Shown: piece after piece, positions 33,240 to 62,800 of the stretch
How positions within the stretch are numbered: position 1 is the stretch's first letter
How the letters are laid out: each line of letters opens with the position of its first letter
NCBI GenBank assembly: GCA_032718475.1
Contig: JAUCBJ010001327.1
Span: forward strand, 1 to 64,000
DNA: 64,000 bases
Source: Nemertoderma westbladi
Taxonomy: Eukaryota > Animalia > Xenacoelomorpha
Direction: 5' to 3'
Program-made: the position numbers and the translations under genes
Notes under the pieces: generated by a model
Told to the model about the DNA's origin: nothing
Database searches by the model: none
The model's input: the letters and a program-made list of their open reading frames with translations, nothing else

Positions 33240-34820
33240 TTAATAGATTTCAGTTTCTTTATTGCGCAGTAGGCAATAAATAGATTTTGTCTAATGTTCT
33301 GGTAGAACATTAAAAGATTTAGACTCTTTATTGCGCAGTAGGCAATAAAATCAAACGTACCGGTCGGACGGTAAACTGTAGGCCTATTAACCCGAACCGG
33401 TACTTACCCAGTATTATTTCGATTGTGAAATATTGTATATTATAGGCTGTTAGGGGATTAAGGATTGATCACCCCTTATTCCTTTGTATGGTTTACTTAT
33501 TTCTGTCAGTTTTATTTATCGGTAAGTGTAATATTGAGCAGAAGGTGTGTAAGCCTGCTCAGATTGTATAAATAATTTGTAGGCCGGATTGTTGTCTAAC
33601 TGTTGTTAGGTCTCAGGCGATTGCAGTGTATGTAGAGTGTCTGTCCGATAAAGTGCTAGTTAGGAAGGTGGAGGCATCCAGTGCTGTAAGGTAAATCCTC
33701 CACGAAAGAATAAGTCGTACTACGTAGTTAAAACGCCTACTAACTAACCATTTCGGAGTTTGCATATACTGTAGTTTATTTAGGCTTGATAGTAGTCTGC
33801 CAGCATTTGGTCTGTGTTTTATTTAAATAGTCTGTGTGGGTAGCGTAATATTTATTATTCAGAGTTTATGCAAGTATTTGCAACCTACAACTCCCCAAGT
33901 TTATTCCTTACAGTAATTATGCTAGTTATGCATACCGTTATAGTTAAATTAACCCTGGTACTACTTCAGGGCTGCTTGGCATAGGTAAAGACTGGTGATT
34001 TTGTGCTCCGGTCACTCCAGCAGATACCGTGGTTCTTTTGGCTGTTTACGTATATTTAACTGCTAGTTATATGTTGTATAAGTACTTGTACCTAATTTAG
34101 GGTTTAGAGTACAGTGCTTTCCTGAAAGTAATTTAGTGTGTAGGCATTATATTTGTGTTGTAACGTGTTTAATAGGTCCGTTAGCTCTGGTTGGCTTCGA
34201 TAATTAACCTCTAGGTATAGGACACTCCGGGTACATAACATAGTGCTTATAGTTTAAGACTATAAGCCGTCAGATGGTGGTATTTCCTTATCTGGACAAC
34301 GCAACTTACTTAATACTACTTTATTGGTTTCAAATACCGTAATTTCCTGTCAGTTTGTAAGAACCAGATATTCTAACTCCTTGTTAGTCTGGTTCGTAAA
34401 TTTCTTGTTAAATTACCCTAAAAATTGTACGTGTAACTTGTTTATTGTTTATTTAGAGATTGTGTAATCTCAACCCGTTACGTAAGTAATTTGTAGTGAT
34501 AAATAACTTAGTTAAGTAGAATTATCAGTATTAGTGTCTAACAAGTAGCACTCCACTGAGAGCATCAAGCTTCTGTGTAGTGACTTCTTACACAGAAATA
34601 ATAACATTTATTTCAAATATTGTCAAAACCCATTACGGGTATATATATATATATTTATAAATTAATTCAATCAGATTTATAAAATAATAGGCCTGTTATA
34701 CATCAATTAGGTCTTAATATCAGTTGAACTACTGCTTAATATCAGTAATAAAGTAAAGGGAAGGAATTCCTAAAATTTGGAAAATCAGTTATTATTAAAT
34801 AATTGACATTACCGGTATTT

Positions 34821-37800
34821 GGACTTCACCCCATTAGTGACGGAGCCAAATTTATTTTGGACTCTTTAGATGCGGAGATATTAGCTGTGGAGCAGGCTAA
34901 ATTTGACGAAAGCATTCTCATCGCAATGGACAAAGAAGAACAAATAAAGAAAAAGCAAATAGAAGACCGAAAGGTAGCAGCAGCGGCGGCAGCGGTGGCA
35001 GCGGCAGAAGCTGAAAGAAAAGCGGCAGTGGCAGCGGTAGCGGCAGAAGCTGAAAGAAAAGCAGCAGCGGCAGAGGCTGAAAGAAAAGTAGTAGCGGCAG
35101 AAGCTGAAAGAAAAGCGGCAGCAGCAGCGGCAGTGGTAGAAGCAGAAAGGAGGGCATCGGAAGCGACAGCCCAACTAGAGTTGGAGAACCTTCAGGCGAA
35201 ACAAGATTAATTAAATAAACAAAGAGCAGCTACTCAGATGCAACTACTGAGTCGATCTACTCCCAGAAGACAGGGATTTACCTCCTCGGATGAAAGAGAT
35301 ACAACTGATCCCGAGGGTAAAAGTAATAAATCTCGTTCAAACGGACGTAGAAGAGCGCCCCACCGGCATAAGTTGCCTAACTTACCCCCTGCGGTGAGAA
35401 GGGAGCTAGCTAGTGTAGACTTAAGTAATCGAGAGCCAACAGCCCAAATTATTAGAGTAGAAAGACTTCCTACTATAGTAGATTAGCCAGAAATAATTAG
35501 GCCTGTTGGTGAAGCCACTCCCTTGATAGAGACCCCTTTGCTCCAAGAACCTAACTCTAAATTCCCTTTGCACAGTACCAAACTACCTGTGCCCAGTAGA
35601 CAACTGCTGGAATCCCAAACAGTCCTGGACGCCGAGTAAGACATTATAAACAAATTTGTCTCCCATCGTCCCGATGCGCCATCCAGCTACTACGTTGGCG
35701 ACTCCCACCTCCGCGGTTGAGTGGATGGACGAGGGACGATGGGGGATGGAGCAGTTGCTCGGACAGCTCAATGATAATAAACTTGAGTCTTCCAAACAAG
35801 GAATTGAAAGGGACTGTTCAATTGTTAAAGGGAACAGTAAGTTAGAGTTAGTAGGTTAGAGCTGCAAGAAGTACAGCAAAATATCGCTCTAGAGCGCGAT
35901 AAATTAGTAAATATACAAATGGGTATACCACCACCCCCTGTAACAATGTGTCAGCCCGTTAGGTCTGAAGTATTTCATGCGCAAGGTGTTGATACTGATA
36001 TCCCATACAGATCTGATAATAATCCGAGAAATTTATATACCGATAATTCGATATTAAATAATACGATAGCTCAAGAAAGTTTTCACGTCAGATGGCTAGA
36101 ACTGAAGCCCGTCAAGCGGTAAAAGTGGGAGAGGTCGTCAAGTTCAATGGAGATGAGATGAAATGGTTACCTTTTAATGAATATTACAAAGATAACATAC
36201 AGAACTCTGTACTATCCAACGGAGAGAAACTACGATTCCTCATCAAATGCTTGGAAGGACCTTCCAAGTTAATGGCGTTAAAGTTTATTGGATATCCGGA
36301 TGGATTGAGACAAGTTTGGGAAACATTAAACATCAGGTATGGTAATAGGACTAACATAGCTAGGTATCTGTATGCGAAATTAGTAGCGCCCCGAAAGTTT
36401 CTTAGCAGCGGGATTATAGAGTTTTCCGATGAGATTCAGGAGATCTGTAGACAGCTAGACTGGTTAGGTAAGTCTCAGGAATACCAGAGTTCTATGGTTG
36501 TTGGAGCCGTAGCTTCAACTTTGCCAAATGGTGGAGTAGGTACTCGCTGGGACAATCTCGCTGGGTTCTCTATTTAATGGACCAACAACATAGAGACCCT
36601 ACAATGGCTGATCTCATGTCGTTCTTAAACGGAGAGGTAAGATTACAGCTCCTAAAACAGTCTAGAGAGAAGACACCGGAAAGTAAGGTAAGTGAAAAAC
36701 CCGTTACTAGGAGAAAGGTAACACCAGTGTGTTATACAGATGATTGCGAAAGCCAAACGTCATATGACGAGAATAGCGGCAAGGACACCGAAAGATCTTA
36801 TTATGTCAACAAAGTTAGGAAAGATGTAAGTAAATCTAAGTCTCGAACCAGTGACAGGAGAGAACAGGTAACAACTCCCCCTACATCTCCTAAGAGAATT
36901 CATGGAAGCAAGCCCAAAGAAAGAGCTAGCGTACACAACACGACGCAGGTTAAGGTAAGTAACATCAAACCTAAGTGTGTATTGTGCGACGGGCCACATC
37001 GCTTGAGTGGGTGTGATGAATTCTTAAAGAAAACATTGAAGGATAGATGTGATGTCATGTGGGATAAACAGTTGTGCTATAACTGCCTCAGGCCAGGACA
37101 TCAACGAAGAACCTGCTACTCAGACGCGAGGTGTGCTAAGTGCGGCGCGAAACATCATATCTTGCTGCACACCGAGTTTGATAGGACCCGTACGAGTCAG
37201 GTGAGTGAGCCCAAACTACATGTCCAATTCAGTGATATGAACGACACTGACCACAGTTCGGAGATGGAAGGATTCTGCACTGATGAATTTTCAGACGAAA
37301 ATGAATCCTGTTATATGATCAACACAACTGTGTATCGAGCACTTACGTATGAGACCGAAACGGAGAACCCCAACTGTCTATTCCAGATCGACAGCTCTCT
37401 GGTAAAGCCCCAACATCATCTGTCGGTATCCATAGAGTTTCCCGTAGTGCAACTGAGGGTCCATGGGATAGGGAAGAGCTTAATAGTGAACGCCCTCCTT
37501 GACTCCGGCAGTACAGGCACTTTTATAGACAAAGACCTAGCCGAAGATATCTTTGCTGGTCAACCAAAGTTCCGAACCAAACTGAACCTTTCCGGAATTA
37601 TGCAGGTTTGGAAATCCACAGTATCAACAGATTACTATGTGGGTTCGTTGTCCACTCCCCAAGATGAACTCAGAGAAAATAGTGTAAGGTCAGTCAAGAT
37701 GGTGGCGATAAAGAACTTTGCTACTAGCCAAGTGGAGCCTTACAACTGGGACGAAGATCATTTTACCCAGCAATACAACATACCTAGATTCAATACCGAT

Positions 37801-40800
37801 TATCCAGGGGTACAGATTTTTCTCGGCCAAAATGTGCGCGAGGCGCTTGAGACATTAGAAAAACGGCCTGCTCGACCGCGACCACTCCAGATGTACGCGG
37901 GAAGAACAAGAGTAGGTTGGTACTTCACTGGACCTTCCCATAGGACTTTACTAGAAAGACTCCCGAGGGAACAAGTCCACCAGGTAAACAAGTGGGAGGA
38001 AACTATAAGTGAAGAAGAAATTCCAGCTGAGGAAACTCTATACTCCTCAGATAACGACGACATATGTAATTTATATGAAGAGGAAAATACCATTGAACTC
38101 CTCACTGAGAACCAAACTTGGTTAAAACAGGTCAACTTATGTAACCTTATCAGTCAACATAGCAAACAATTGACGTATGATGATGAATTAAATGAAGCGG
38201 TAGAGCGGTATAATAGTAAAATACGCAATGAACACGCCGTACGATTCTTTACTCAAGAAGCGGTAGAGCCTAATTCCTACGATAAAGCATTATCGGTCGA
38301 GGAAGAGAGAGCCAAGCAGATTCAGGAAACAACCACACGTTATCTGAAAGATGAAGGTCGTTATGAGATTGGTCTGCCATTCCAACGGAGAGAACCCAGC
38401 TTCGTGAATAACCGACCTTTAGCGGAAAGAAGAATCGCACAACTTCATCGGCGTTTGACGGCTAACGATCGAGCCAAGGAAATGTATAAAACTCAATTGA
38501 AGAAGTTTATAGACAAGGGATATGCGGAGCGAGTTCTGGAAGAAACACCCATAACGGAGAGAATGTATTATTTGACACATCATTACGTTCCCAAGCCCAG
38601 TAAACCAAACGAAGTCCAGGTAGTGTTTGAAGGCTCCGCCCTTTATATGGGACAATCCCTAAATTCCGAACTGTTGCTGGGACCCAACTTACTTCAATCT
38701 TTGTTGGGAATATTACTACGACTGCGGCAATATTCGATCGCCTTCACTTCCGACATCGAAGGCATGTTTCTACAAGTAAAAGTGTTAGCTAGGGATCGAC
38801 ACAGCCTACGATTTCTGTGCTGGCCTGAAGGAGACCTAAACCGAAAACTGGTAGAGTACTGGATGATGATCCAGGCTTTCGGGATCGTCTCGAGCCCCTC
38901 GAACGCTTGTTCGGTAGTGCGTACCACTGACGATCACAACAGAGACGCCTTATCTAACTGGTTATTGACAACATCAAACGGGATATTTACATGGACGACA
39001 ATTTAAAGTCCCTCCCATCGGTGGAAGAAGCAATTGATGTTGCCAAGGGAATGGTAGAGTGCTTACAACGCGGTGGATTTCGTCTAACCAAATTCACTAG
39101 TAACTCCAGTGAGTTCCTGGAATCGATCCCAGTAGAAGACCGAGGTGTTAAAGACCTGGACCTCAGTAAGGACGATCTTCCAGAAACCAAAACGCTTGGA
39201 TTAAAATGGGACACAGAGAGAGATATTCTATTCTTTTAATTAAAGCAACGAGATAATCCAGTCAGAACTAAACGGATTTGTCTAAGTATCCTGAGCACTT
39301 ATTTCGATCCGTTGGGATTCATTAGCCCAGTCATACTAGTTGCTCGGAGCTTAGTACAACAAATGTGGTTCGAAAACCACTCGTGGGATGATCCAGTCAA
39401 GAGAGAACTGCTAAAGAAGTGGATGAAATGGAAAATTATTTACCATCTATCGAAAACTTTAAGATTTCCCGCTCATATTTCGGTCACGTTCTCCCCACGT
39501 ATTCCTATCAACTCCATGTTTTTGGAGACGCCAGCGATATGGGAATAGGTATAGTAGCCTACCTGAGGGTTGAAACTCCCGATGGAATTAAGGTTTCATT
39601 AGTCGCCTCTAAAGCCCTAATAAACAACAAACTGCGAGTACCCAGAGTGGAGTTAAAGGCGGCTTTATACGCTACTGCCATCGGCCGGAATGTAACGGAA
39701 CAGATCGACTATCCACTAGAGAAAACTGTCTATTGGACTGATGCTTTACTCGTTCTGGAGTATATAACTAATGAAGTCTGCCAATTCAGCGTCTTTGTTA
39801 CCAACAGAGTAGCCATTATACTCAGTCGCTCTAATATAGATCAATGGAGACATTGCCCTGGGACGATTAATCCAGCTGACATCGTTTCCAGAGGTGCACC
39901 TCCTCAAGAATTGATAGATACTCCAGACTGGTTAGGTGGACGCGACTTCCTGAGTAAAGAAGAGGAGGAATGGCCCCCTCATCTCATCACAGCGGAGATC
40001 AGACAAGCCAAGGGAGCGGAGAAAGTCAAACCGAAAACCCGGACGAGTAAATCAAAGTTATTTAAGCCAGTGATAGATCTGTCTGTGCTACATGCCTCCG
40101 GTGACGACGCTGAGGATCTAAACTCACCCGTGGATGATACCAGAGCTATAAATAAATCCGTTATAGAAATCAGGGAAAGAGACTGGAAATCTGAAACACC
40201 AGATGTCTCGCAAGGACTCTCTCCTCTCCTACAAAGAGCGATAGATCATTACAGCTCCTGGAATCGGCTTTGCAAGGCCATTGTGTATCTGAAAAGATGT
40301 TTCCATCATCACTATTCCAGGACGAAGATCGCTAGTGATACCGCTCCAGTAGTATCTGAAAAGGTCCTTGCTACTAAAGATCTTCCCACTTATAGAGTGT
40401 CTGATAAATTTCTGACTGAGAAGATCAGATACCAAGAACATGATGATACCAATAAGCAGATACTGAGACTCCTGCAATGTTACGAAGATTCTGAGTATTT
40501 CCTGTTGTTGAGAAATCCACAGATGCGCTTAAGGGATCGTTTCTCTAGCACAATGATAGGTGGGTTAATATGTGTTGGAGGGAGATTAACTAATGCGCCA
40601 TTGTCCTTTGACACTAAGTTTCCCATACTCATTAGAAATCTTGAAATACAAATCAAGATGATTGTAGATGTTCACAGTAAGCTTTACCATGCTGGTAGAG
40701 AACGAGTTCCTAGCGAAATTCGAACTCGCTATTATTTCCATAAGCCCCATAGAGATCTAAACGAAGTTCTTAGGAACTGTATACCCTGTAGGAAAGCATT

Positions 40801-41884
40801 TAGTAGGCCTTTAACACAGCGAGAGGCAGAATTACCTAGGGAACGAGTAAGCTGTTATGAACCACCCTTTACTAATACTGGTGTGGATTTATTTGGCCCT
40901 ATTGAAGTATACCGTGCTAGGACTATAGTCAAGCGATGGTGCGACATCTTTGTTTGTATGACTTGTAGAGCGATCCATCTAGATATGGTAAATGATCTAT
41001 CTACAAACAGCTTCATACTGAGCTTACGCCAACAAATCGCTCGTTTTGGGACTAGCAACACTATGAGATCTGACAAAGGAACAAATTTCATTGGCGCCAA
41101 TAACGAGATCAAAGCTTACGTAAAGGATTGGAACCAAAGACAGATGGACGATCAGCTACGAGTAACAGCATCTAGCTGGACCTTCAACACCGCCGAAGCC
41201 CCTTGGTGGGGAGGAAGTTGGGAGAGACTCATACGAATTGTGAAGACCGCATTTTACTTTATAGTGCCGTGACGAGCGTATCTCACCGACGAACTTTTGC
41301 GGACGCTAATGGAAGAAATCGCCGCCTATCTCAACGAGAGACCGCTTATGCCAGTCTCCTCTAGTCCCGACTCCCTAGGAGCGCTAACACCCGCGCATTT
41401 CCTACTAAAGAAACCTGTAGCCATGCTCCCACAATCGGAAATCACGGACGGAGATGAATACTGCCGACGAACTTGGCAACTTATGCAGTTATTATCCCGT
41501 CGTTTCGCTGACCATTTCAAAAAACATTATCTTCCTACGCTACAACTTCGAACAAAGTGGTTTGCGCAGCAAGAGAACGTCAGCGCCGGATACATGGTCC
41601 TTATCGTGGAATCAGATCTTCCCCGTAAGAGGTGGCAGACAGGTCGTATCATCGAGACTCATATATCCGATGATGGTTTAGTGCGATCGGTAGAACTCGT
41701 CGTCATGCGACGTAACTTTAAGAAACCTGGAATTGTGTTCGAAACACAACAACTTAATCGCCCGGTTGGTCGTTTATGTTTACTGGAAAGAGACCGAGAG
41801 TTGTCCGGTAACTATGGAAGGCAAGAGACTCTTCCCACGACCACCTCCCTAATCCAACAAACATCTAGGGACTCCGCAATGTAA
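34821..41884 (+). pseudogene. Gag-Pol polyprotein of element B, disrupted and missing the gag N-terminus
   Basis: Triple BEL-type knuckle (CVLCDGPH..C, CYNCLRPGH..C, CAKCGAKHHILLH), protease LLDSGS, RT YMDD (38988-38999), RNase H HVFGDAS...ELKA...YWTDA...NPAD, integrase HSKLYH/CIPC with D(GVDLFGP)-D(SDKGTNF)-E(SWERL). Several stops and frameshifts. Confidence 0.95.
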
Positions 41885-42093
41885 CAGCGTTTGGAGTGGG
41901 TGTCCCAGTGTCCTGTGATGTCACCTTATGACAACTGTCCTGTGATGTCATCAGTGATGTAATAAAGGGTTTTAAACACGGCGGGACCAGTACTAATCTG
42001 TCATTAAGTGCGCTTAGCGACCGGCAATTATTAGAAGTTAATGTCCAATTAAATGGGAACATTTGGCGCAGTCTTCAAAGCATAAATACACAA

Positions 42094-42672
42094 ATGGGTC
42101 TCTTGAAGAAAGGAAAGTCAATACCCAAGAGAAGAACAGAAGGTGATCAATGTGTGGATTCAGAAGATGGTGAACTTAATATTAAACCAGCATCGACATC
42201 AGAAGAATTAAATGAGCTACTAAAGAATGTGGAGCTGAAGGCATATTTAATAGACGAAGGTGGAAAAAACCTAAAAGACGCTGTTAGGCGACAGTTGAAG
42301 TGTTTATTTACACGAGAAATGGCGAGCCAGACTTCATTTAGTGGAAAATCATCAAAGGGTCAAAAAATATCCTTAGTTGAAATGGGCGTAGTTTCATTAC
42401 TAATGAATGTGAATAAAAAACGTGATGGGTATACAAAGGCAAACGTTGAAACGGAAATAAAGTCCGCTATACACAGAATGAGCGACAGGCGCGTTTTTGC
42501 TGTGGATAAGGTTGATGGTGAAGTGCAAACGGGAACGTCAACAGCGACGACGTTGTCGACTGGAGTCGGCGACATGATGGGAGAGGTTCATGGTGAACAA
42601 AACCAGCAGAGGAATGGGAAAACAAATAATAAGAGAGTGAGGAGCTTATCTTCATCTAGTAGTGAGGTGTAG
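42094..42672 (+). CDS. DUF4806/BEN-like domain protein or exon carried by the nested DNA transposon
   Basis: GGKNLKDAVRRQLKCLFTREMASQTSFSGK...K...VETEIKSAIHRMSDRR fits the DUF4806/BEN pattern seen in animal EnSpm accessory genes. The start codon is uncertain. Confidence 0.65.
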   Translation: MGLLKKGKSIPKRRTEGDQCVDSEDGELNIKPASTSEELNELLKNVELKAYLIDEGGKNLKDAVRRQLKCLFTREMASQTSFSGKSSKGQKISLVEMGVVSLLMNVNKKRDGYTKANVETEIKSAIHRMSDRRVFAVDKVDGEVQTGTSTATTLSTGVGDMMGEVHGEQNQQRNGKTNNKRVRSLSSSSSEV

Positions 42673-45493: not shown

Positions 45494-48400
45494 ATGACTG
45501 AGTTGATAGAAGGTGATCTTGGTATCAGGGAGCGATATACCCTACCACTGCAAGCGTTTGTTGATAGTTTGATAAGCGGCGACGCTAGTCAACATACGAC
45601 GGAAGACGATGGCCGTTATATCGAACCGCCAATGTCAAAGGAACAGCTCAAGCGTGAATTAGACTATCGGAAATTCACAGCTCGCTATACGCATCGTAAT
45701 GGTACGTATATGGACTTCTTAACTACTGGTCATCCTATCGATTTACACGATACTGACGATGTAGACACCAAAAGGGAAATGATTCTATTTAAATATCATG
45801 CCCAGCGGAGTAGGAATGATAAACTGAGAATTGAACATGAAAATTCTATTCGAAACCGACTCGAAAGAGAAGATGTTGAAGAACCGGATAAACATAGTGA
45901 TTTCAATGAATATTTAGAATTCTTGAGAGAAACTTATCTCAATGTAGCTAGTCAACAAAATCTAGAAACTCAATATCCTCAAGGTATACATCATAACCCT
46001 ATGGTAGAACTCAAACGACTCTATTTTACTATGACGTATCTTACCGCCAATCGACCGCTACCTGTTGTCCCGGATAGCTTCGAACAGATGGAGGAATATT
46101 GTAAAACTGGAGAAAGATCACCAGCGTTTCCCTTACAAGACATGCGTCTTTGGTATTACTGCGATGAATGCCCTAGACCCAATCAACAAACGGAAAGACA
46201 TAAAAATCCGCGGAGACGTTGCGCTAAACACAGTTTTACTCGCTATACTTAAGGGAGTTTTGAGCGAAACTTATTCGACGCATCACCTACGCTCGCTCGC
46301 TCAACTCAATCCTTAAATAAACCTATGATCAGAGTTCCGGAATACTCGGTCAGACCTCCTCATTCCCTGGTGCGACCTCAGACTCTTGATCCTAATAGTA
46401 TGACAGATCCTCCTGAATTGTACTCATTGTTCAAAGATCTAGTGTTATCCGAACAATTAGTCGGTGGCACTCCGGTTGTGGGCTCTCTAGATATTCGCCC
46501 ATCCTACCTAGCCAGATTGGGACGCGGACATCTAATATCTCTGTTCAACCCGTATAATCGTCCTGGTTTAACTCCGATACAACCTGTCACCGAGGTGGAG
46601 GAAAGTTTTGTATGAAATGCGCTAGTCGCTATTCGGCAGAAGATCGGAAAAGGAACTTACGATTGTTTAGACAAACGTAAATTGCAACAACAAGTCCAAG
46701 CGGTAAAAGAATTGGCTTTACCTCAGTTCGATCGGGAAATCCAGAATCTTGAGGAAGATATCGAACTTGGACGAACATACTCTCTACAAGAGTTCTTGGA
46801 CGAACGCTTCCAACGACAAGCGGAGGAAAATCAGCTCGAGGAGAAGCACATCGAAATGGATGAGAGAGAGGAAGCAGCTTTAGCCCAACCGGAAGCTCAA
46901 ATCCTTATGACGGATCTCTATTCCAAAACCATCATTGATCCTTCGATGGTCCCCCATTTCGGAGACAAACTCTTCGCCACGGTACAACCCCAATCGGTTG
47001 ATATCAACTTAAGATCTAGAGATCTTATCGCTGACGCTCCTATGTTACAATGTCCACCAATCGAGGCTGCTCGTGTCGACGGTATACTCGTTGAACCTCT
47101 GGACAATCGAGCGGATCTTGACCGTCGTATGGTACACGAGGTCAATCTACGCGCTAGACCTTTACCGAACTCATTTTACGGGATCAAAGATCACCCCTAT
47201 TATGTCAATTTAACTCAATATTATATGGTGAAACCGGAAGATCCTACACACAGTTTAAAGTTTCTACCATTGATAAATCCCCTTGATCTTGTTGAACTCG
47301 AACAACTACAGAAACATTTAGACCAATTGGTTAAAGTAAACTCATTCAGAAAACTTTATAATGTTTCAAGAATAGAAAAGGACATAATACCTCCGTATAA
47401 TCTCAATGGATTTATTAAAACTTGATTAGTCCATTGGAATCTCGACGTATTATTCGAGGAAGAGAGAATACAGCGATACGGAGATGCAGATACTTATACC
47501 ACGCATTATCTGAAGTATAGCGATTTACCTAATGTAAGCGAATGCGCAACTTTATGGCATCCAGTGGGTATGACCATAGAAAACGCCACCAAAGAGTGGA
47601 ACGAAACTCTTAATGTTATAGAAATGTATGGAGTTGTCACTTACGATAACGAAGGTAGCGTTCCGGTTGGAGAGCTGGGAACTACGCAAATGATACACAT
47701 ACGAGGACTAGCTGGTTCTACTCATTTATTTACTCGAGCGTGTTCCGAAGTAATCGATTATTCTTTTGAGACTCTCACAGAGATACAAAAGAAACTCCGA
47801 CATGGACAGTTCGAACTCGCACAGCGTTATGTTACCGATACCGAGCGCAAACCAGCCATGGGTATAGATGGATCTATGCTACCCCAGCCAGTGCTCGAGA
47901 TGCTGTTTGACGAGATAATCCTTAAAATTGGCTCAGCTGTTTATGGAGATCTCCAAAATGACTTCAGAAACATGGAGAATATCCCATATCCTTTCGTAGA
48001 CACCCAGCTGATTGCACCCTGGGCAGATGGCCGAGGTTTCTTCCGAACCATGTATGCCAATACATCAAGCAGAATCAATAAAGTACAAAGAACCTCTATC
48101 GGACATCTTGCCTTCCAAGAATACGGATGGAATTTCAAAGTTGGAAATCCTGTCAGTTATCAACAAATATATGGAGACCATTATTCTCGATTATATTTTG
48201 ACAGACCATTAACCGCACCTGGAGTCGTCTATAGCTTTATGAGTGTTCCACTCCGTCCCTCATTAGCTATCATCACCCTCACTAGCTTCGAGAACGCCGC
48301 ACTTGCCGGTTGGCTAGCCGATGTGTGCAGTCGCACTATACGTGCTCATCCCTTAGTGCTTGGAACCAAACTCGCCAAGCTAGATGAACACAATAAATTC

Positions 48401-49713
48401 ATCCGATTCGAATGCTTTAGGCGCTTTCTGACTCCGTTCCGCAACATTGATAGTCAGTTCAAGACTCAGAGACTAAGCTGCTGAGAAGTTGGACAGCGCT
48501 GGATTTGCCATTTTTAAGGACGTTTGTATACAGAACCTACATTCGTCTGTCATACAAAGACCCCGAATCCCCACTGGTTATTCTATTGTGGAAGTTCAAA
48601 CAGTGGGTTCACTTGAAGAAACAGCTGCACCTGGAAGAAGAACCAATTTGCTTGGAATCCGAAGAGATTCAACCCACAGCCCCCAGGAGTAGCGACAATG
48701 ATTATGTGTTGGAATGGTATCAGGGTCCACAATGTCTCACGGCATATGATTATCGGCATGCCAATTACAATTCTAGGAAACGTTGCCGATTATGTGCATC
48801 ACGAGACCACTTTACCCCGGTGGACTCCAGCGAACCCTGCTCCTACTTTAAAGAGCAACATATTATGGAGATTTATTGTGCGTATTGTTGACTCAACAAT
48901 CTACACATCTTTGCCGCCTGTCCTCAATTTATGACTCAATGTCACCATTGTCAGTTCAAAGGACATGCAAGTTTCGATTGCCCTTTCAACCGAGATCTGG
49001 AGAGCGTAGACGAAACAGTTACCCTGCATTTCATCAGAGCTTGGGAAGCTAACGCGGATCTCCATTGCGAATCACGTCACCGATACTATCCAGGACGTGC
49101 GTATGAAGGAGTCTATGCGTTTCACCCATACCTCTTTGCATCCGTCGAACAAAATTCTCGCATTCGCAGTTACGAACTGATGAAGCGTGTTGGCAAGAAT
49201 ATTTCAACTAAATATGTTCATAAATATCTTAGGAATATTAATCCCAATAACCTGAATTCCTATAACTTGATTAACTTCATCCGTCAAGATCAGGAATACG
49301 GCGACTTGTTCATAAACTCGCATGCTGAATTACAAGAAATTCATAGACGACCCTATGAATATAAAGCCAGAGAACGCGAATTAGAGAGAACAATTAAACC
49401 GCGGAAATTTCTCACTACACATGGTCAACCTACCGCTGTCGTACAAACGACCCATCAAGGACCGGTAAGAGCTGCCATCCTGAAACGAGCTCTAAAGGTT
49501 GTTCGCCCTCGTTCCACCGATGTTGATATCGATCAACCGGGTACCTCGACCGGCGGATACACCGACCGTAATCCAAAACCTTCTGATGCAATCGCATTGC
49601 ACCCTTCCCCCAGGAGTTATAGCCCTCCTAGTAAAGTGGCTCACCCCAAAGAGAAAAAGACTCGTACTAGTCTCAAAAAACATCATAAACGCCGTTCATG
49701 AAAGAAGGACTAA
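45494..49713 (+). pseudogene. Accessory ORF3 of element B, ~1400 codons: unknown N-terminal domain, DEDDy 3'-5' exonuclease-like domain, CCHC knuckles, basic tail
   Basis: ORFs at 45494, 46325, 46682 and 47564 share one frame, separated by single stops (46250, 46613, 47423). One frameshift lies between 48454 and 48482. ORFs 48505 and 48931 share a frame with a single TGA at 48889. Element C has sense codons at the positions of the stops at 46250, 46613 and 49699. Confidence 0.88.
47630..48260 (+). other. WRN/EXD2/Mut-7-like DEDDy exonuclease domain within ORF3
   Basis: ExoI VVTYDNEG (D at 47645, E at 47651); LPQPVLEMLFDEIILKIGSAVYGD (ExoII D at 47948); FVDTQLIA; SIGHLA...K; RPLTAPGVVYSFMS (ExoIII Y at 48230, expected D is S). 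Confidence 0.75.
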
Positions 49714-49790: not shown

Positions 49791-50910
49791 TGTAAAAGCT
49801 TTTGCGGACATAACTAGTCATTTTTACGCAATGCGCAGAATACTCTAAAATAGCCCTAAAATTGTTAAACTACGCGTCGGAAAGAAGTTATAACCAAGAT
49901 GACGAAATCTGTCAGCTGATTCTTTGTGTACGTGTAGGTTTCTTTGTTCAGGCTTATTCAGCCAATCAGAGCAATCTTCCCCTTTATGCCAGTAGAGACC
50001 TACCTGAGGAAACTAGCGCAATGCATTATGGTTATGGCTTTTCTGAGAATTAGATAAATCTCAGAATTCTGTACTAAGTATGGTCGTTTCAGACTTTGGC
50101 CCAGGAACATCTGATGGCCTTAGTTATAAGAACGTAAATCTATTAACTGAATCACCTTGTCATTTGACTTAACTCAATTCATATCGCATTTCATATAACT
50201 GAACACATACTGACTGTTCACCGCACTGTTTTACTGCTGTTTTATATTGTGTTAATTGTTGTTTATTAATGGATGTTATATTTGGAGAATACCGATAAAT
50301 AATCATAAGTAATCAATCTTCTTGATTACAGAGGTAAGCGGAGAGAGAGTCTACCGGTAGCAACTGCGACTTAAATTATAGTGGTTTTTGTGTGAATTAA
50401 ATGTTATTTCATAATCCTACGTGTGTCAGTTGCAATCCTCCTTATATATGATCAAATTCAGTGACGGTCGGCAAATTAGTGTGAAGTAGTGTAAAGTAGT
50501 GTGAAGTCGTGTGAAGTCGTGTGAAGGTTAATAAAGCATCTCCTAAAGAATGCGCTATTTACGAAACTCTGTGGCCATCTAGTTGTGATTAGTATAAGTC
50601 ATAACTCTGTTTTTATACTTAAAGCGCCACGTCCTAAAGGAACTGTTAATATTTCCCCGAAAGTAAATATAGTTGTCAGAGATTATATAGTAGCAATCAA
50701 TCGAATAATACAAAGTAGCTTACACCGCAATACTTCCTAAGGAACCCGAATCCAGTCTCCCACACCGTGGGTCATACGCAGCGCACCGACTGGATTCGGC
50801 AGATGTAACTTCAGTACACCAGGTAATTGGTAAGGGCTAAAGTCGATTCATAATCAAAAGGACAATTAAAATTGGCAGGTTAAACTGCTAAAGGTCTGAA
50901 AGTGCGAACA
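49791..50910 (+). repeat. 3' LTR of element B (1120 bp)
   Basis: TGTAAAAGC...GTGCGAACA, preceded by the short purine-rich GGGAGCGG (PPT-like) and followed by the TSD GGTAG. Confidence 0.95.
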
Positions 50911-51877
50911 GGTAGGACACTATGTTGGACTTAGTGCATGGTAAGCGCACAGTTCACTTGTGCTGCATACATAGTGTCAATAGATATAAGTTACCAGTTG
51001 GGGAATAATATTGCAGTACTATGGATGCACACACTCGCACTAAAATGAACCGAATCTATTACAGACAGGGCGCAGTCAGCACCAACCGTGTGGAAATCGA
51101 GTTGGTTTGATCTCTGGTCTTGTATATTCATCAACAATAGTAAAGCAATAATAGTAAATAATGATAATGCAATGATATATGCAACAAGATGTTAAAATGC
51201 ATGCAGCAAGCCACAATGCATGCAGGCAAGGCGAAATATTACGAGTCTGGTAGTTACAATGACTCACAACAGGGTAATATGTTGTTAGGTTACGCCCGAG
51301 AGAAATGGGATGAACATCGACTATATAAACAAGTAATACTGCAAAAATAGAACAGCCAATAGGACGCAAGAATACCTGCACCGGTAGTTACCAATGAGAG
51401 TTCAGCACTATACCACAACTGCTGCTAGGCAACATATAAACAAGGTTCACGGTGGTATACAACACGAGTTAGGCATAAATGTTATAAGCACAGAAATTGA
51501 ATGATTCTCTGATAATAAATATAAGATTTCGATATGCAGTTAGCCCGTGCAGCAAAAAGACAACTTCAAACTATAATTTTTTCTAGACAAATTCAAACTA
51601 TAATTATTATGTTGTAATCATCTAATGAATTGTAAAAGCTGTTGTGATTATAGAAGATAGAGAGCAGTTAGCGAAATGATTATTTTGTTCTATCGGATTG
51701 AGTAGTCAGAGAGGAGTCGAGGTGTTAATTGATTAATAATAATATAATAACAGCAGTTGCCATGAATTCAATACAATCGCGCACAAGAAGTGATAAGACA
51801 AATTAGTTCTTATTTTTGTAACTAGAAAGCCAGCAAGCTGGCTGGAAGGAGCCCGGGGGAAAAATCCTAGCCAAGAC

Positions 51878-53006: not shown

Positions 53007-54205
53007 TGTTTGCTTGCGCTTTTGAAGACCTTTGACAGTTTAACCTGCCAAAATTAGAATGTCTTTTAGATGATATATATTCTTTAGCTTTATGACGAGT
53101 ATTTGATACACTACATTAGCTGAAGCCAGTCTATGCGCAATCATTCACCCGTTGGATATACCCGGGAGACTGAGTTCGGAGCTTAATGATTGATGGTGTA
53201 AGCCTACTGTATTATTCGACTGATCGTAATATATAATCTCTGACAAATATTATTCACTTTCGGGAAATATTAACAGTTCCTTTAGGACGTGGCGCTCTAA
53301 ATATGTAAACAGAATTATGACTTAAACTAGACACAACGAAAAGGCTATAGATTCACGTATATGGCGCATTCTTTAGGAGATGCTTTGTTATCAGTTACAC
53401 TCATACACAATGCTGCACAATACTGCACACTAATCTGCCGACCTTCACTAAATTTGGTCACGTATAAAGAGAGCAACATACAATTTATGTCGGGCATATG
53501 AAATAGCATTAGATTCACTTCAAACCACTCAACATAGGTCGCAATCGTTTATCTGTAACCGGTCTCTCTAACCTTTAGTATATCAAGAAGGTGGGGTGTC
53601 TGACTATTGATCAGTATTCCGATATAATAATTCATCAACCAATATAATGAATAACCATCAACAAAAGCAGTAATGTAAGATATGAATTGCATAGATATGT
53701 ATGATAAGATTGTAATTAACTCGGTAACTCAAGTTAGTCGTTTGCATTGATAACAGATATACGTTCTATAATTAAGCCTACTAATGTAAAGCTAAAGAAC
53801 GCTGATATACGGAGGTGCTAAAAGCCGATGTTCTTAGGCTCTGAGCAAAAACATAACACTGAACTACTGAGTTCTGTATACACCTCCAACACAGAGACAA
53901 AAAACGCTCTGATTGGTCAACCGAACAACGAGAGAACAAAGAAACAAAGAAACGTCGACGTGGCAATATCAGCTGTTAGCCGTCGTCATGGTAGCGACAC
54001 TGTTTTCAAGAGTATCCAGCTTATCGCGTCACGAGATTGCGGATTATGTCCTCTAAAGTACAAATACAGTACAAGCACAGAAGAAATGACTTTTATGTCC
54101 CCTAAAACACCAGCACAGCAAGGACACGGCCTCCTTATGCCTGGCAAACCAACTACAGAGTACTTTAAGGGAAAATAACCGGTTAATGACGCAAAAGCTT
54201 TTACA
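53007..54205 (-). repeat. 3' LTR of element C (~1.2 kb)
   Basis: Minus strand starts GGGAGCGG|TGTAAAAGCTTTTGCG and ends GGCAGGTTAAACTGTCAAAGGTC...GCAAACA, homologous to the LTR ends of B. Confidence 0.85.
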
Positions 54206-54283
54206 CCGCTCCCAGAAAATGGGATTTAAGTCTATAAAATATAACAAATCACAGTTTCTAAAATATAAAGATACTCTAAACAG

Positions 54284-55803
54284 TTAGTCTTTCTTACGCA
54301 GACGGCGTTTACGCAGTTTTTTGAGGCTAGCAAGAGTCCTTTTCTCTTTGGGGCGAGCCACTTTACTAGGAGGGCTATAAATCCTGGGTGAAGGGTGCAA
54401 TATGATTGCATCAGAAGGTGTAGGATTATGGTCGGGGTATCCGCCGTTTCGATATGCTTCTCCTCGAGCTGATTTTCCTCCGCTCGTAGCTGGATACGTC
54501 CATCCAAAACTCTCGCAGAGAATGGGGTTGTCTAAGTTCGATATCTTCTTAGAGATTCTGGATTTCACAATCGAACTGAGATAAAGACAATTCGTTTATC
54601 GCTTGGACTTGCTGTTACAACTTACGTTTATCTGAACAAACGCAGGTTTCCTTTCTGATCTTTGTAGAATAGCGTTTAACTCGTTTGGTACAACGCTCTC
54701 CGCCACTTTGGTGACAGGTTATATCGTGTTAAGCCGGGACGATGGTAAGGGTTAAACGGCGATATTAAATGTCCGCGTCCCAATCCGGCTAGGTAGAATG
54801 GGCTAATATCTAGGAAGCCCACAACTGGGGTGCCACCGATTAATTGTTCAGGTAACACTAGATCTTTGAGCAGTGAGTACAGCTCGGGAGGATCCGTCAT
54901 ACTAATAGGATCAAGAGTCTGAAGTCTCACTAGGGAATGAGGAGTTCTGATCGAGTATTCCGAAACTCTGATCATAGGTTTATTTAAGGATCGTCTGAGT
55001 CGAACGAGCGTAGGGGATACATCGAACAAGTTTCGCTCGAAACTCCCGTAAGTATAGCGAGTAAAACCGTGTTTAAAGCAACGTCTCCGCGGATGTTTAT
55101 GTCTTTCCGTTTGTTGGTTGGGTCTTAGGCATTCATCGCAATAATACCAAAAATGCACGTCTTGTAGGGGAAACGCGAGTGATCTTTCTCCAGCTTACAA
55201 TATTCCTCCATCCGTTCGAAGCTATCCGGTACAACAGGTAGCGATCGATCGGCGGTAAGATACATCATAGTGGAATAGAGCCGTTTGAGTCCTACCATGC
55301 GGTCATGATGTATACCTTGAGGATATCGAGTTTCTAGATTCTGTTGACTGGTAATATCGAGATAGGTTTCTCTCAAGAATTCCAGGTATTTGCTGAAGTC
55401 GCTGCGTTTATCCGGCTCTTCAACATCTGCACTTTCGAGTCGGTTTCGAATAGAATTTTCGTGTTCGAGTCTCAGTTTATCGTTCCGCTTCCGCTGGGTA
55501 TGATATTTAAATAGACCATTTCCCTTTGGTGTCTATATCGTTCGTATCGTGTAGGTCGATAGGATGACCAGTAGTTAAGAAGTTCATATATATACCATTA
55601 CGATGCGTATAGCGAGCGGTGAATTTTCTACAGTCCAACCCACGCGCAAGTTGCTCCCGGGACATTGGCGGTTAGATATAACGACCATCGTCCTCCGTCG
55701 TAGTTAGACCAGCGTCGCCGCGTATCAAGCTATCAACAAACGCCTGTAAAGGTAGAGTATATCGCTCCCTGATACCAAGATCATCATCTATCAACTCAAT
55801 CAT
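54284..55803 (-). pseudogene. Accessory ORF3 of element C, with an internal deletion removing the exonuclease and knuckles
   Basis: ORFs 55125-55376, 54676-55158 and 54284-54568 align to B 45494-46855 and then to B 49552-49713. Junction near 54447. Confidence 0.9.
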
Positions 55804-57449
55804 ATCTGCTATATAAGCTTATCCATATTATAATGAGTTTATATTTAGGCGAGCGGGCGTCGCTGCCTACCCCTCTCTGCCCCCGGACGGTGCGAGATCC
55901 TCAGCGCTGGTGTACTTTCGCCGATGTGCCTATCGCCAACGTCGTAGCTGCACAACGACTACAACAACCAGCACGAGCCACTCCACCGTCCGTCCCAAAG
56001 GCTTAGATATACTTCAGGTTCTTACTGGAGAGTTAGGGTTACTTTCACAATTGCGACTCGCTACTGTAAACACACCTTAGTAGTAACATTCACCTACAAA
56101 CGCACAAATTCCACGTAACAGTCACAAATGGTACACATTCTATCACACATTCGGGTCATTTGTCCGTTAGTCAAGTGCCTTCCAGAATGTCACGTTGTTA
56201 TTATGTATTCTTGGATACTAGCGGTGTGCTATTTATTCCGTATGCTATTCAATACGCAAGCCTTTTATTGTTCTTTTAACTCACTTCTAATTCTAGCGTG
56301 GTTGTTGCCATGGTGACATTATGGAAAGCTAGCGGTAGAATTAGGGTAATTCTCATGCATACAGATCTGGGATGCTATTTAATAGTAAGTCTTTAATGGT
56401 CAATATCCCCTTTATACATGATTCTATGAATTTTATCGGCTATTGTCTATACATTGGAGATTCTCGCACAAAAATACACTTAATAGAGTGAATCTCCGCT
56501 CCCATGATCTATTAATTAATGGAATTTTGGGAATGTTATAAATTGTACAAAATGACAATTTATTAAATTCATTGAAATATATGAATTTAAATTTATTCCC
56601 GTAAATTTTATTATTTAATGTTAAATAGACACAATTTTATTCCAGAACATGTCTGGGGACTGGGATCCTTGATTCTAGGAATTTTGTCCTTTTAAGAGTA
56701 TCGGTAAGTGCTACGATATCTTAATCGACTAGAATTTTAAAGGATCTGATATTTGACAGATTTTTGTAAATATTAATAATTAATATTTAGGATGGGCACC
56801 AGTTTATTCCAGAACTTGTCTGGGGACGTTAACCATTGATTCTAGAAATTTGTCTTTCAAGTATATCGGTGGGTGCCGCGATATCTTAATCGACTAGAAT
56901 TACAGATGGTCAAAGGGTTTAACAGATTTATTTTGCGTTATACACTACTGTTAAAGGGACATCACGCTACTATATGTATTATTTAATATACGGTATGAGA
57001 GCAATATCGCACGAAGCAATGTCAGTGTGAAGAGGCAAGTCGTTTCCAAGGTCTACCCAGAGCTTGGTTTAGCCGAGACACGAGGATCTGAACTTTGCAT
57101 TCCTAATACTCTGCCTACCAATAATACTTAAATATAGTAGTGGCTTTATTGTACTTTAATAAGTACGGATATTTCATCTTACTGTAGTCACGTATTTATA
57201 ATATGATACGGACAGTAAGGAAAGAGAAAAAGAATTATTTCTCGCCGTCGCACTAAATATATAATATACGTAATTAAATAATAAACGCGAATATATATTG
57301 CACTAATCTACTAAATAATCTCTAAAATACCATACTACTAAATAAAATTAAATAAAACGATTAAAATAAAATTACATAATAATACATACATAAATATAAA
57401 AATAAAACAAATACAAAATAATAGAGTCACACACCCACTCCATATGTTG

Positions 57450-60400
57450 TTACGTTATGGAGTCCCTAGATGTTTGAAGGATTAGGGAGGTGGTCGTGGG
57501 AAGAGAATCTTGCCTTCCACAGTTTCCGGAGAGTCCTCCATTCCCTTCCGGTAAACACAAACGACCGACTGGGTGATTGAGTCGCTGCATCCCGAATACA
57601 ATTCCAGGTTTCCTCTTCGTCCTGGAATAGTGACGATAGAAACATCGCTCTAGGTACACGACGGCCTTACAAAGCCGATTCCAGGAGCTATAGTGGTCCG
57701 TCGCTCCCTGCAGGAGAGGTGAGAGTCCCTGCGAGACGTCTGATGTTCCAGAGCTCCAATCGCTCTCTCTGATCTTCATGAAGGATCCACTCGCGGTGGG
57801 GAGGTCCAGATCCACGGCGTCGTCCCTGGCAATATGTAATACCGACAGATCTATCCCGGGTTCAAATAACTCCGATCCACCCGTCCGGGTTTTAGGTTTG
57901 ACTTTCTCCGCTCCCTTGGCTGGTCTAATCTCAGTCGGAGTAAGATGGGGAGGCCATTCATCCTCCTTACTCAGGAAGTCGGGTTCACCTAACCGGTCTG
58001 TAGTATCTGTCAGTTCTTGAGGAGTTGCTCCTCTGGAAGCGATGTCAGTTGGATTAAACTTCTTGGGGCAATATCTCCATTGATCTACATTGGAGCTAAT
58101 ATCGTCATTATCTGAGGAGTATGGTGTTCCCTCAGTTGGGTCGTCTCCCTCACTAGTATCATCTTCCCATTCACTCACCTGGCAGACGCGATCTTTAAGC
58201 AGTCTTTCTCTGAGTGTCCTTCGGGAAGGTCCAGTAAGGTACCAACCTACTCTAGTTCTTACCGCATAGGTCTGAAGTGGTTGCGGTTGAGCAGGTCGTT
58301 TCTCCAATGTCTCCAGCGCCTCATGCGCGTTTTGACCGATTAATATTTGTACTCCAGGATAATCGGTGTCGAATCTAGGAATGTTAAGTTGTTGGGCATG
58401 ATCATCTTCGTCCCAATTATAAGGTTCCACTTGGGTGGTAGCGAAGTTCTTTATTGCCACCATTTTGACTGACCTTATACTGTGTTCTCCTAGTTTATCC
58501 TGTGGAGTGGACAACTCACCTATATAATAGTCGGCAGCCACAGCAGATTTCCAAACCTGCATGATCCCTGACATGTTTAGCTTGGTTCGGAACTTGGGTT
58601 GTCCAGCAAAGATGTCTTCGGCTAGTTCTTTATCGATGAATGTTCCTGTGCTGCCGGAGTCCAGGAGGGCGTTCACTATATAGCTCTTCTGAGGTCCGTG
58701 GACCCGTAACTGGACTACAGGAAATTCTCGGATTCCTACATTTGAAGTTGGCGCTTTCCAAGATTGTTGTTGATCTGAAGTAGTTAGGGTGAGGTCGCTG
58801 TCTGTGTCTTTCTCGTACATGAGTGCTCGATACACTGCGGTGGTGTTTATTAAGTAACAGGATTCGTTTTCGTCGGAGAACTCGTCCGTATAGAATCCTT
58901 CCATCTCAGATTGATCAGTGTCGTTCACATCACTGAATTGGACATGTAGTTCGGAATCACTCACCTGACTCGGACTATTTCGCTCGAATTCAGTGTGCAA
59001 CAAGATATGATGTTTCGCACCGCACTTTGCACACCTTGCGTCGGAGTAACAGGTTCGCCGTTGGTGTCCTCGTCTGAGGCAATTATAACACAACCGCTTA
59101 TCCCACATGACTTCACGTCTATCCTTTAGTGATTTCCTCAGGAATTTATCACACGCATTTAAACGGTGGGGCCCGTCTCACAGCACACATTTGGGCTTGA
59201 TGTTACTTACTTTAACATGTGCTGTGTGGTGCACGTTCGTTCTTTCCTCGGGCTTTCTCACCTGAATTCTCTTGGGAGACGTAGGAGGATTTTTTCTTAC
59301 CTGTTCTCTCCTGTCATTGGTTCGAGACTTGAATTTACTTACCTGGTCTTTAGGCATTTTATTGTCATAGTAAGATCTTTCAGTGTCTTTCCCGCTGTCT
59401 TCCTCTTGAGAAGCCTGGCTTTCGCCATCGTCTGTATAACACACTGGTATTACCCTTCTCCTAGAAACGGGTTTCTCACTTACCTTGTTTTCCGGTGTCT
59501 TCTCTCTGGACTGCCTTAGGAGCTCTAATTTCACTTCTCCATCTAAGAATGACATGAGATCAGCCATGGTAGGGTCTCGTCGTTGTTGTTCCATCATATA
59601 TAACACTTTCTTGTCCCAGCGTGTACCTACTCCACCCTTGGGCAAAGTAGATGCTAAGGCTCTAATAACCATAGCACTCTGATACTCATGAGACTTACCT
59701 AGCCAATCTAATTGTCTGCAGATCTCCTGAATCTCATCGGAAAACTCTATAATTCCGCTGCTAATAAACTTTCGGGGCGCTACCAACTTTGCATACAAAT
59801 ACCCAGCTATGTTATTCCTATTACCATACCTGATGTTTAGTGTATCCCAAACTTGTCTTAATCCGTCAGGATGTCCAATAAACTTTAACGCCATTAACTT
59901 GGGAGATCCTTCCAAGCACTCGATGAGGAATCTAAGTTTCTCTCCATTAGATAGCACAGAGTTCTGTATGTTATCTTTGTAATATTCATTAAAAGGTAAC
60001 CATTTCATCTCATCTCCATTGAACTTGACGATCTCTCCCACCTTTACCGCTTGCCGGGCTTCGGTTCTAGCCATTTGACGCGTAAAACTTTCTTGGGCCA
60101 TCGTGTTATTTAATATCGAGTTATCGGTATATAAATTTCTTGGATTATGATCCGGTCTATAGGGAACATCATTATCAACAGGTCTATAATTACCCTTAAT
60201 AGGGTTCACTATAGGAGTTTCTACTTCGCTAGCAGTATAGATGCGTGTAGGCTCCACACCTTGCGCATGAGATACTTCAGACCTAACAGGTTGACACATG
60301 GTTACAGGGGGTGGTGGTATACCCTTTTGTGCATTTACTAATTTATCGCGTTCTAGCGCGATACTTTGCTGCACCTCTTGCAACTCTAGCCTACTTTCCC

Positions 60401-62427: not shown

Positions 62428-62544
62428 GTTTGTTTACACAGTTGAATGTCTACTGCAATTACAGTCTAAGTAAGTCTAGTAATTCAGTATTAACTGCTAG
62501 CCTAGTAATTAATTACCGATACTGCTACTCAGTGTAGCGTGATA

Positions 62545-62800
62545 TATAATATATTAGTATACCGGTATGCTTATAGTATATATAAGTATTATTACAGACT
62601 AGTTTATCACCGAAACCGGTATATAGTTTAGCATAAATATATATAAATATAATAGGCCTATCGTGGATACCGGTATGCAGTTTACACTTATAGTGTATAT
62701 ATAAGTATAATTATTAACTGGAATTAATTACAGAATACCGGTATGATTTCAGCACAAATATAAATATTATAATAGGCCTATCGTAAATACCGGTATATCA
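62545..62800. repeat. ~120-bp tandem duplication in the leader of element C
   Basis: ACCGGTAT...TATAAGTAT...ACCGGTAT...TATAATAGGCCTATCGT repeated twice. Confidence 0.7.

What the first reader, a model, noticed from the sequence alone, without database searches (positions are those of the whole stretch)
47630..48260. Exonuclease domain keeps ExoI D/E and ExoII D, but ExoIII YxxxD reads YSFMS
Seen: VVTYDNEG...G..L; LPQPVLEMLFDEIILKIGSAVYGD; FVDTQLIA; TSIGHLA; RPLTAPGVVYSFMS. Known: EXD2/WRN-type domains have the same blocks in the same order (vlGiDxE, LPxxLxxlLxDxxIlKvGxxxxxD, vDlxxla, sLxxLa, LtxxQvxYAaxD). An insertion of ~45 aa follows the ExoI strands. Inference: the missing fourth acidic residue is either decay in this copy (AGT codon) or marks a pseudo-nuclease RNA-binding module, as in EXD1/Egalitarian-type proteins.
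Basis: partly seen in the sequence, partly recalled or inferred. Interest (0 to 1): 0.8.

Follow-up and report, generated by a model that had tools for sequence, protein, structure and literature searches.

The report
Exonuclease cargo of giant BEL retrotransposon
An 18.5 kb jumping gene in this genome carries an extra gene for a predicted nucleic-acid-trimming enzyme joined to zinc knuckles; the catalytic residue reported as missing likely sits 16 codons further on, so the family's enzyme is probably a working nuclease, not a dead one, although this copy is broken.

Summary
The motifs are real and the domain is DnaQ/DEDD-like, but the ExoIII reading is probably out of register. The domain lies in a broken ~1,400-codon extra ORF (45494-49701) between pol and the 3' LTR of an 18.5 kb BEL/Pao LTR retrotransposon (32376-50910, 5-bp target duplication), followed by three CCHC-type knuckles. 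The Ser codon (48242-48244) has no variant at 5% or more in four sequencing runs, so it is not decay. The only homologue found (P0001: exonuclease plus knuckles) has ExoIII Y-x3-E, and its Glu aligns best with window Glu 48290-48292, not Ser 48242. YSFMSVPL then matches the 'W-x4-L' block that precedes ExoIII. This copy has six extra in-frame bases at 48271-48286 and no ExoIII Tyr. Against this: profiles of bacterial DEDDy proteins alone do not separate the two registers, only one homologue exists, and the model's C-terminus is unreliable. Variation among copies is mostly synonymous (14 of 18). Best reading: an accessory exonuclease with a D-E-D-E tetrad. DEDDy third ORFs are published for Gypsy-like rotifer elements; I found none in print for BEL/Pao. 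New variant of a known kind; activity untested.

The parts
32371..32375 (.). left target-site duplication (5 bp)
   Evidence: same 5 bases directly outside both LTRs
32376..33239 (+). 5' LTR, TG...CA
   Evidence: 829 of 859 aligned bases identical to the 3' LTR
34803..41884 (+). broken gag-pol of BEL/Pao type
   Evidence: Pfam DUF1759 E 1.5e-13, Asp_protease_2 E 0.022 (weak), Peptidase_A17 E 1.1e-16, Integrase_H2C2 E 5.1e-7, DUF5641 E 6.7e-21, in that order
41932..42672 (+). 246-codon ORF inside the element, unassigned
   Evidence: only weak Pfam rows, DUF4806 E 0.11; the stretch has no match in the second copy
45494..49701 (+). accessory ORF, about 1,400 codons, broken by stops at 46250, 46613, 47423 and 48889 and by a frame change near 48454-48484; no transmembrane-like stretch
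   Evidence: highest 19-residue hydropathy 1.44
47570..48343 (+). DnaQ/DEDD-like 3'-5' exonuclease domain
47645..47653 (+). ExoI Asp and Glu
   Evidence: invariant columns D26, E28 in 26 of 26 rows of A5; anchored alignment to P0001 prefers this Asp over the D-T-E at 47837 by 11-18 points
47948..47950 (+). ExoII Asp
   Evidence: invariant column D127 in A5
48230..48253 (+).
   Evidence: no variant at 48242-48244; aligns with the W-T-K-P-L block of P0001
48271..48286 (+). stretch where this copy is six bases longer, in frame, than other copies; it covers the position where ExoIII Tyr is expected, and this copy has no Tyr there
   Evidence: 10 of 10 listed contigs that bridge it with 31 or more bases on each side are 6 bases shorter; 32 of 760 records were listed
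48290..48292 (+). Glu, likely the fourth catalytic acid (ExoIII)
   Evidence: aligns with P0001 Glu233; only a synonymous variant among copies
48784..48981 (+). three CCHC-like zinc knuckles, the second interrupted by a stop
   Evidence: zf-CCHC_3 E 0.04; matches P0001 502-559, E 7e-4 within the window
49791..50910 (+). 3' LTR, with about 260 extra bases, preceded by a short purine-rich tract
50911..50915 (.). right target-site duplication
53195..64000 (-). second, internally deleted copy: gag-pol, then both ends of the accessory ORF, then LTR; it lacks the part matching 46860-49550, so no exonuclease domain
   Evidence: blastn 70-90%; tblastn
24189..30174 (-). third, more distant copy: gag and protease, a pol fragment, then the N-terminal part of the accessory ORF (41% amino-acid identity)

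Best explanation
The domain is part of an accessory gene carried between pol and the 3' LTR of a BEL/Pao retrotransposon family, and it likely encodes a working 3'-5' exonuclease whose fourth catalytic acid is likely Glu 48290 rather than the Ser at 48242. Shown: the element, the gene's position in three copies, the conserved ExoI Asp/Glu and ExoII Asp, selection on the reading frame, and that this copy is broken. Inferred (about 0.75): the ExoIII register, giving a D-E-D-E tetrad. Inferred from the family's known chemistry (about 0.55): two-metal-ion trimming of 3' ends, with the zinc knuckles holding the RNA. Inferred and untested (about 0.3): the target is silencing RNA aimed at the element, so that the gene works as counter-defence; trimming the element's own RNA is the close alternative.
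For: Element: LTR pair, TG...CA, 5-bp duplication, BEL/Pao domains, same gene order in two more copies. Family: 2,490 contigs of run X1 lie on 1.2 kb of the ORF, 1,617 of them under 95% alike. Selection: 14 of 18 differences around ExoIII and 25 of 38 best-supported differences in the ORF are synonymous, against 22-30% expected, p 4e-5 or lower. Fold; P0001 against a DEDDy profile gives probability 91%, E 1e-6, with Tyr on Tyr and Glu233 on the ExoIII Asp; Glu233 is also the best placement of the ExoIII block in P0001; 25 of 30 Atlas feature hits of P0001 30-270 fall in the PF01612 set, best score 0.94.
Against: Only one homologue was found in 1.84 billion representatives, so the register rests on one comparison. 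The block after the shared F-x-D-P alone does not align better than shuffles (686 of 1000 reach the score). The ExoIII block profile does not separate the registers (left half 5.1 versus 4.1, acid plus helix -6.8 versus -7.2) and ranks Ser 48242 third ungapped. MAFFT with full-length references chose a third register, at Q-Q-I-Y-G-D. The model is under pLDDT 50 from residue 155 on. All 49 references have Asp, not Glu, as fourth acid. This copy has no ExoIII Tyr; the residue in other copies is left open. No activity or target was tested.
Confidence: 0.62

Rival explanations
1. Pseudo-nuclease: YSFMS is the true ExoIII, the fourth acid is Ser throughout the family, and the domain binds RNA without cutting it, like EXD1.
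For: L-x6-Y-x3 spacing fits at 48209-48244; hhalign of the window alone and the ungapped block profile accept this register; the Ser, Met, Val and Pro codons at 48239-48250 show no variant at 5%.
Against: The collinear homologue has both blocks and carries its ExoIII in the second; Pro at +2 and +5 would break the helix; the low-confidence model has coil at 202-242 and a helix only at 243-256, just after Glu241; the Glu has only a synonymous variant.
Confidence: 0.15
2. The register is as in the best explanation, but the domain works mainly as an RNA-binding module: it keeps acids, as Egalitarian does, and Glu in place of the last Asp leaves little or no activity.
For: Egalitarian keeps all five residues yet does not need them for RNA binding or oogenesis. 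No reference here has Glu at this place (0 of 49). Large insertions flank the site.
Against: All four acids are kept in both the window protein and P0001 at about 27% identity. Rotifer retroelement DEDDy ORFs also carry an Asp-to-Glu change at another position, DEED, and are described as intact, though untested.
Confidence: 0.17
3. The ORF is a separate insertion or a captured host gene with no role for the element.
For: The element is longer than the 4.2-10 kb given for the family and holds other unexplained DNA (41904-43793 has no match in the second copy).
Against: Three copies, down to 41% amino-acid identity, keep the ORF in the same place and orientation; it has no introns that I could see and is under purifying selection across many copies.
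Confidence: 0.04
4. The fourth acid was an Asp at 48242 that decayed to AGT in this copy.
For: This copy is decayed elsewhere (four stops, a frame change).
Against: No difference at 48242-48244 in any of four runs with full cover of the place.
Confidence: 0.02

Closest known systems
DEDDy-type ORF3 of bdelloid rotifer LTR retrotransposons Juno and Vesta, and of Terminons (PMC5408684; PMC6431247)
   Same: A DEDDy-like exonuclease gene in the env position of an LTR element, without transmembrane segments, with one Asp changed to Glu, activity untested.
   Different: This element is BEL/Pao by its Pfam domains; the rotifer families are Juno and Vesta (Gypsy-like: recalled label). The rotifer motif is DEED, here likely D-E-D-E. 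This ORF is about 1,400 codons with three knuckles. Kinship to the rotifer ORFs was not tested: their sequences were not at hand.
EXD2/WRN-type and RNase D exonuclease domains (PF01612)
   Same: Block order, ExoI D-x-E, ExoII Asp, L-L-x-D-x-x-I-x-K-x-G and D-T-Q blocks.
   Different: About 41 extra residues after the third strand, a longer segment before ExoIII, Glu as likely fourth acid, below every curated cut-off.
P0001 (unnamed 648-residue protein, ENA, one contig of 9,449 bases)
   Same: Exonuclease followed by three CCHC-like knuckles; 32% identity over 112 residues, E 2e-14 pairwise; ExoIII Y-x3-E-N.
   Different: Much shorter N-terminus and smaller first insertion; its genomic context is unknown.
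EXD1 and Egalitarian
   Same: DEDDy-superfamily domains used for RNA binding.
   Different: EXD1 is described as inactive; Egalitarian keeps D-E-D-D and Tyr. Neither is carried by a retrotransposon. No tree could be built against them.
Belpaoviridae (BEL/Pao elements; PMC8742986, PMC3118150)
   Same: LTRs of 0.2-1.2 kb, gag then protease, RNase H, integrase.
   Different: 18.5 kb against 4.2-10 kb in the ICTV profile and a 15 kb upper bound in the survey; third gene is not env-like. 'Exonuclease' does not occur in the main text of PMC3118150 or PMC9094657 nor in the ICTV profile.

Membership tests
BEL/Pao LTR retrotransposon (Belpaoviridae) | Paired LTRs of 0.2-1.2 kb with target-site duplication | tested here: met
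   864 and 1,120 bp, TG...CA, 5-bp duplication
BEL/Pao LTR retrotransposon (Belpaoviridae) | Gag, protease, RNase H (PF05380), integrase in Gypsy-like order with BEL-type domains | tested here: met
   DUF1759, Asp_protease_2 (weak), Peptidase_A17, Integrase_H2C2, DUF5641; PF05380 marks Bel/Pao (PMC3985635)
BEL/Pao LTR retrotransposon (Belpaoviridae) | Reverse transcriptase domain | tested here: inconclusive
   No RVT_1 row for the ORF pieces scanned; the region between protease and RNase H is broken by frame changes, and 39007-39391 was not scanned
BEL/Pao LTR retrotransposon (Belpaoviridae) | Primer-binding site and placement in an RT tree | not tested
   No host tRNA set or reference RTs at hand
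DnaQ-like/DEDD fold | Profile or structure match to the RNase H-like exonuclease core | tested here: met
   (direct, weak but above shuffles); through P0001. The structure match (EXD2, Z 8.8, rmsd 3.6, 106 aligned, residues 1-149) is circular, as the model was built with DEDDy rows
DEDDy exonuclease, strict | ExoI Asp-x-Glu and ExoII Asp | tested here: met
   47645, 47651, 47948
DEDDy exonuclease, strict | ExoIII Asp | tested here: not met
   Glu (48290) in the preferred register, Ser (48242) in the other; 49 of 49 references have Asp. Hence filed as a DEDDy-like variant, not a strict member
DEDDy exonuclease, strict | ExoIII Tyr four residues before the acid | tested here: inconclusive
   Present in P0001; absent in this copy in the preferred register, where six extra bases lie; left open for other copies
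DEDDy exonuclease, strict | Metal-dependent 3'-5' exonuclease activity | not testable with these tools
   needs an assay
EXD1-type pseudo-nuclease | Family-wide loss of catalytic acids | tested here: inconclusive
   Three acids are present; the fourth is present if the register is Glu 48290 and absent if it is Ser 48242
EXD1, EXD2, EXD3/Mut-7 or WRN subfamily | Grouping in a tree with animal members | not testable with these tools
   No tool returned those sequences
Rotifer retroelement DEDDy ORF3 pool | Clustering with Juno, Vesta and Athena DEDDy ORFs | not tested
   Sequences not fetched; the paper's supplement was not opened

The most novel reading that the evidence does not exclude
A lineage of giant BEL/Pao elements and the source of P0001 share an undescribed subfamily of D-E-D-E exonuclease plus zinc-knuckle proteins that destroy the host's silencing RNAs: a transposon-encoded suppressor of silencing in the env slot.
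Probability: 0.2. Interest if true: 0.7.

Novelty: new variant of a known kind. Interest (0 to 1): 0.42.

Why it matters
It extends exonuclease cargo from rotifer elements to a BEL/Pao family with many copies and shows the gene is under selection, so the element needs it. What such nucleases do for retroelements has been open since 2017 (PMC5408684 says activity is not demonstrated). An intact-looking natural relative (P0001) with Glu as fourth acid makes both questions testable: is a D-E-D-E site active, and on which RNA? The dead-enzyme headline that earned the 0.8 score is probably an alignment slip.

Tried and rejected
Searches without a result: word-index protein search with the window ORF, near and longer lengths, and with P0001 40-270 (itself only); Pfam on the domain; PDB by sequence (one search hit only the knuckles); Atlas features of the window ORF, best 0.81, uninformative; metagenome and viral contigs; plasmids; earlier findings by sequence, place and one word set. 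Single-sequence fold: pLDDT 32.8, unusable. Second model: C-terminus under pLDDT 50, so it does not settle the register; viral fold library gave no match at E 0.001; the wide VIA search was not run. hhalign against the narrow EXD2-like profile gave 6% or less for both proteins. No RNA holder was listed, which says nothing on expression. Rejected: ExoI at the D-T-E of 47837 (no room for two strands); ExoIII at Q-Q-I-Y-G-D (it uses up the S-I-G-H-L-A block and gives no acid); a hidden frameshift at 48230-48245 (no indel row there); an env gene (no hydrophobic stretch). My recollection that a C. elegans Cer element has an exonuclease-like accessory gene found no support, and the paper I wanted was not held; it stays an unchecked lead that could lower novelty. 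My recollection that Asp-to-Glu at the Klenow ExoIII Asp keeps much activity was not found and is not used as evidence.

Full report
1. Observation. The quoted blocks are all in one frame of the stop-to-stop ORF 47426-48484. Against bacterial EXD2-like proteins the window has about 41 extra residues after the third strand (A5). Pfam does not see the domain, but RNase D models match the ExoII block (E 0.0088 and 0.035) and a phage exonuclease family the ExoI part (E 0.033). Of 16 weak hits in 301 bacterial genomes, 10 were DEDDy proteins. A profile of 50 bacterial DEDDy domains gave 13.1 bits against at most 7.6 for 200 shuffles (67 reported). The fold call stands.

2. Context. The ORF lies inside an LTR retrotransposon at 32376-50910: LTRs 32376-33239 and 49791-50910, TG...CA, 829 of 859 aligned bases identical, with the same 5 bases on both outer sides. 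Gag, protease, RNase H and integrase domains of BEL/Pao type come in Gypsy-like order; RT was not detected in the pieces scanned. After pol lies a reading frame of about 1,400 codons (45494-49701), broken by four stops and one frame change. It holds an unassigned N-terminal half, the exonuclease, three CCHC-like knuckles and a basic tail, and no transmembrane-like stretch. Two further copies in the window keep gag-pol and parts of this ORF in the same order, one at 41% amino-acid identity; both lack the exonuclease part. No whole genome was held. In public runs 2,490, 1,888, 1,095 and 45 contigs lie on 1.2 kb of the ORF, most under 95% alike (four runs, at most three samples, one possibly the window's source). 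BEL/Pao elements are described from metazoans (PMC8742986), so the host is probably an animal.

3. The codon asked about. The complete difference table for 48190-48345 has 23 rows at a 5% cut-off and none at 48242-48244, with all bins covered. The Ser is family-wide, not decay. Leaving out the five rows inside the indel stretch, 14 of 18 differences are synonymous; of the 40 best-supported rows (288 more were not shown), 38 lie in the ORF and 25 are synonymous; 22-30% would be expected (p 4e-5 or lower). The frame has been under purifying selection.

4. The register. One homologue came from 1.84 billion representatives: P0001, E 2.5e-5, 32% over 112 residues, with the same exonuclease-then-knuckles layout. 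Against the DEDDy profile P0001 aligns at 91% probability with ExoI, ExoII and ExoIII in place, its ExoIII reading Y-x3-E; Glu233 is also the best placement of the ExoIII block. P0001 has two P-containing blocks here, as the window does. Forcing Glu233 onto Glu 48290 equals the free optimum under four gap settings and beats Ser 48242 by 5 to 17 points. In this copy the Leu-to-Glu distance is 13; 10 of 10 listed contigs that bridge 48271-48286 with 31 or more bases each side are six bases shorter (32 of 760 records listed), which gives 11, the distance in P0001 and in 49 of 50 references. The Glu codon varies only synonymously. After Ser 48242 come prolines at +2 and +5, where none of 49 references has one. 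This copy has no Tyr in that helix; what other copies carry there is left open.

5. Results against. The block profile scores the two registers alike once two positions of offset are allowed, and neither helix scores well (ranks 83 and 147 of 279). The C-terminal block alone does not beat shuffles (686 of 1000; with the upstream block 14 of 1000). MAFFT with full-length references picked a third register. Its match to EXD2 (Foldseek E 9e-4; Z 8.8, rmsd 3.6, 106 aligned, residues 1-149) is circular. I put the Glu register at about 0.75.

6. How it likely works. DEDDy enzymes trim 3' ends with two metals held by four acids and a Tyr (established; tetrad and Tyr as the signature). With three acids shown and a fourth inferred, the family protein likely is such an enzyme, the knuckles (P0001's match retroviral nucleocapsid at E 1e-4 and Air2 at E 0.064) holding the RNA. 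Most BEL/Pao elements replicate with gag and pol alone, so a gene kept by selection in the env slot more likely serves against the host than in the core cycle; I favour trimming of silencing RNAs (about 0.3), with processing of the element's own RNA close behind. Both are inference; PMC5408684 raises 3'-end processing of element RNA and a silencing role, and says activity is not shown.

7. What is known. PMC5408684 (parts 1 and 2 of 5 and passages) describes DEDDy ORF3s with a DEED motif in rotifer Juno and Vesta elements and Terminons; PMC6431247 and PMC6338049 (passages) repeat this. The Egalitarian preprint (passages) shows Egl keeps its catalytic residues and calls Exd1 inactive. PMC8742986 (whole text) gives 4.2-10 kb genomes with gag, pol and sometimes env; PMC3118150 and PMC9094657 (passages) have no 'exonuclease' in the main text; PMC3985635 (passages) ties PF05380 to Bel/Pao. 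Ten searches (listings only, apart from the papers named) showed no BEL/Pao element with an exonuclease gene; the library lacks most subscription papers, I opened no supplements, and a recalled Cer-element case could not be checked. Four unchecked earlier findings of this scan report exonuclease third genes, live and dead, in other LTR elements, three of them called Gypsy; they suggest the theme recurs, and I did not test them.

8. Verdict. A real, selected accessory gene of a very large BEL/Pao element, DEDDy-like with a likely D-E-D-E tetrad, broken in this copy. Not a strict DEDDy member (no ExoIII Asp), probably not a pseudo-nuclease. New variant of a known kind; interest 0.42.

Noticed in passing
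window 7813-16801: Satellite of 281 copies of a 32-bp unit, 99% matches.
   Followed up: no
window 22519-23890: Tandem array of 32 copies of a 43-bp unit, 91% matches, just beyond the third copy's accessory-ORF fragment.
   Followed up: no
window 16980-18141: Fold-back element: 410-bp inverted arms, 92% alike, with internal 49-bp repeats.
   Followed up: no
window 1090-2256 and 6797-7378: Reverse-transcriptase fragments, RVT_1 E 5e-30 and 1e-13.
   Followed up: no
window 41932-42672: Unbroken 246-codon ORF between integrase and the accessory gene, only weak DUF4806 match, absent from the second copy.
   Followed up: partly
window 45494-47422: The N-terminal 640 codons of the accessory ORF match no family at a curated cut-off (Pfam on all three pieces; NCBIfam and PHROGs on two), yet the first 257 codons are kept in all three copies.
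   Followed up: partly
window 51878-52777: Short inverted-repeat element rich in 13-15-bp units, lying between the first element and its inverted second copy.
   Followed up: no
window 33593-64000: The first and second elements lie tail to tail, forming a 30-kb imperfect inverted repeat.
   Followed up: partly
window 19327-19963: Degenerate 6-bp-based repeat open in three frames on the minus strand.
   Followed up: no
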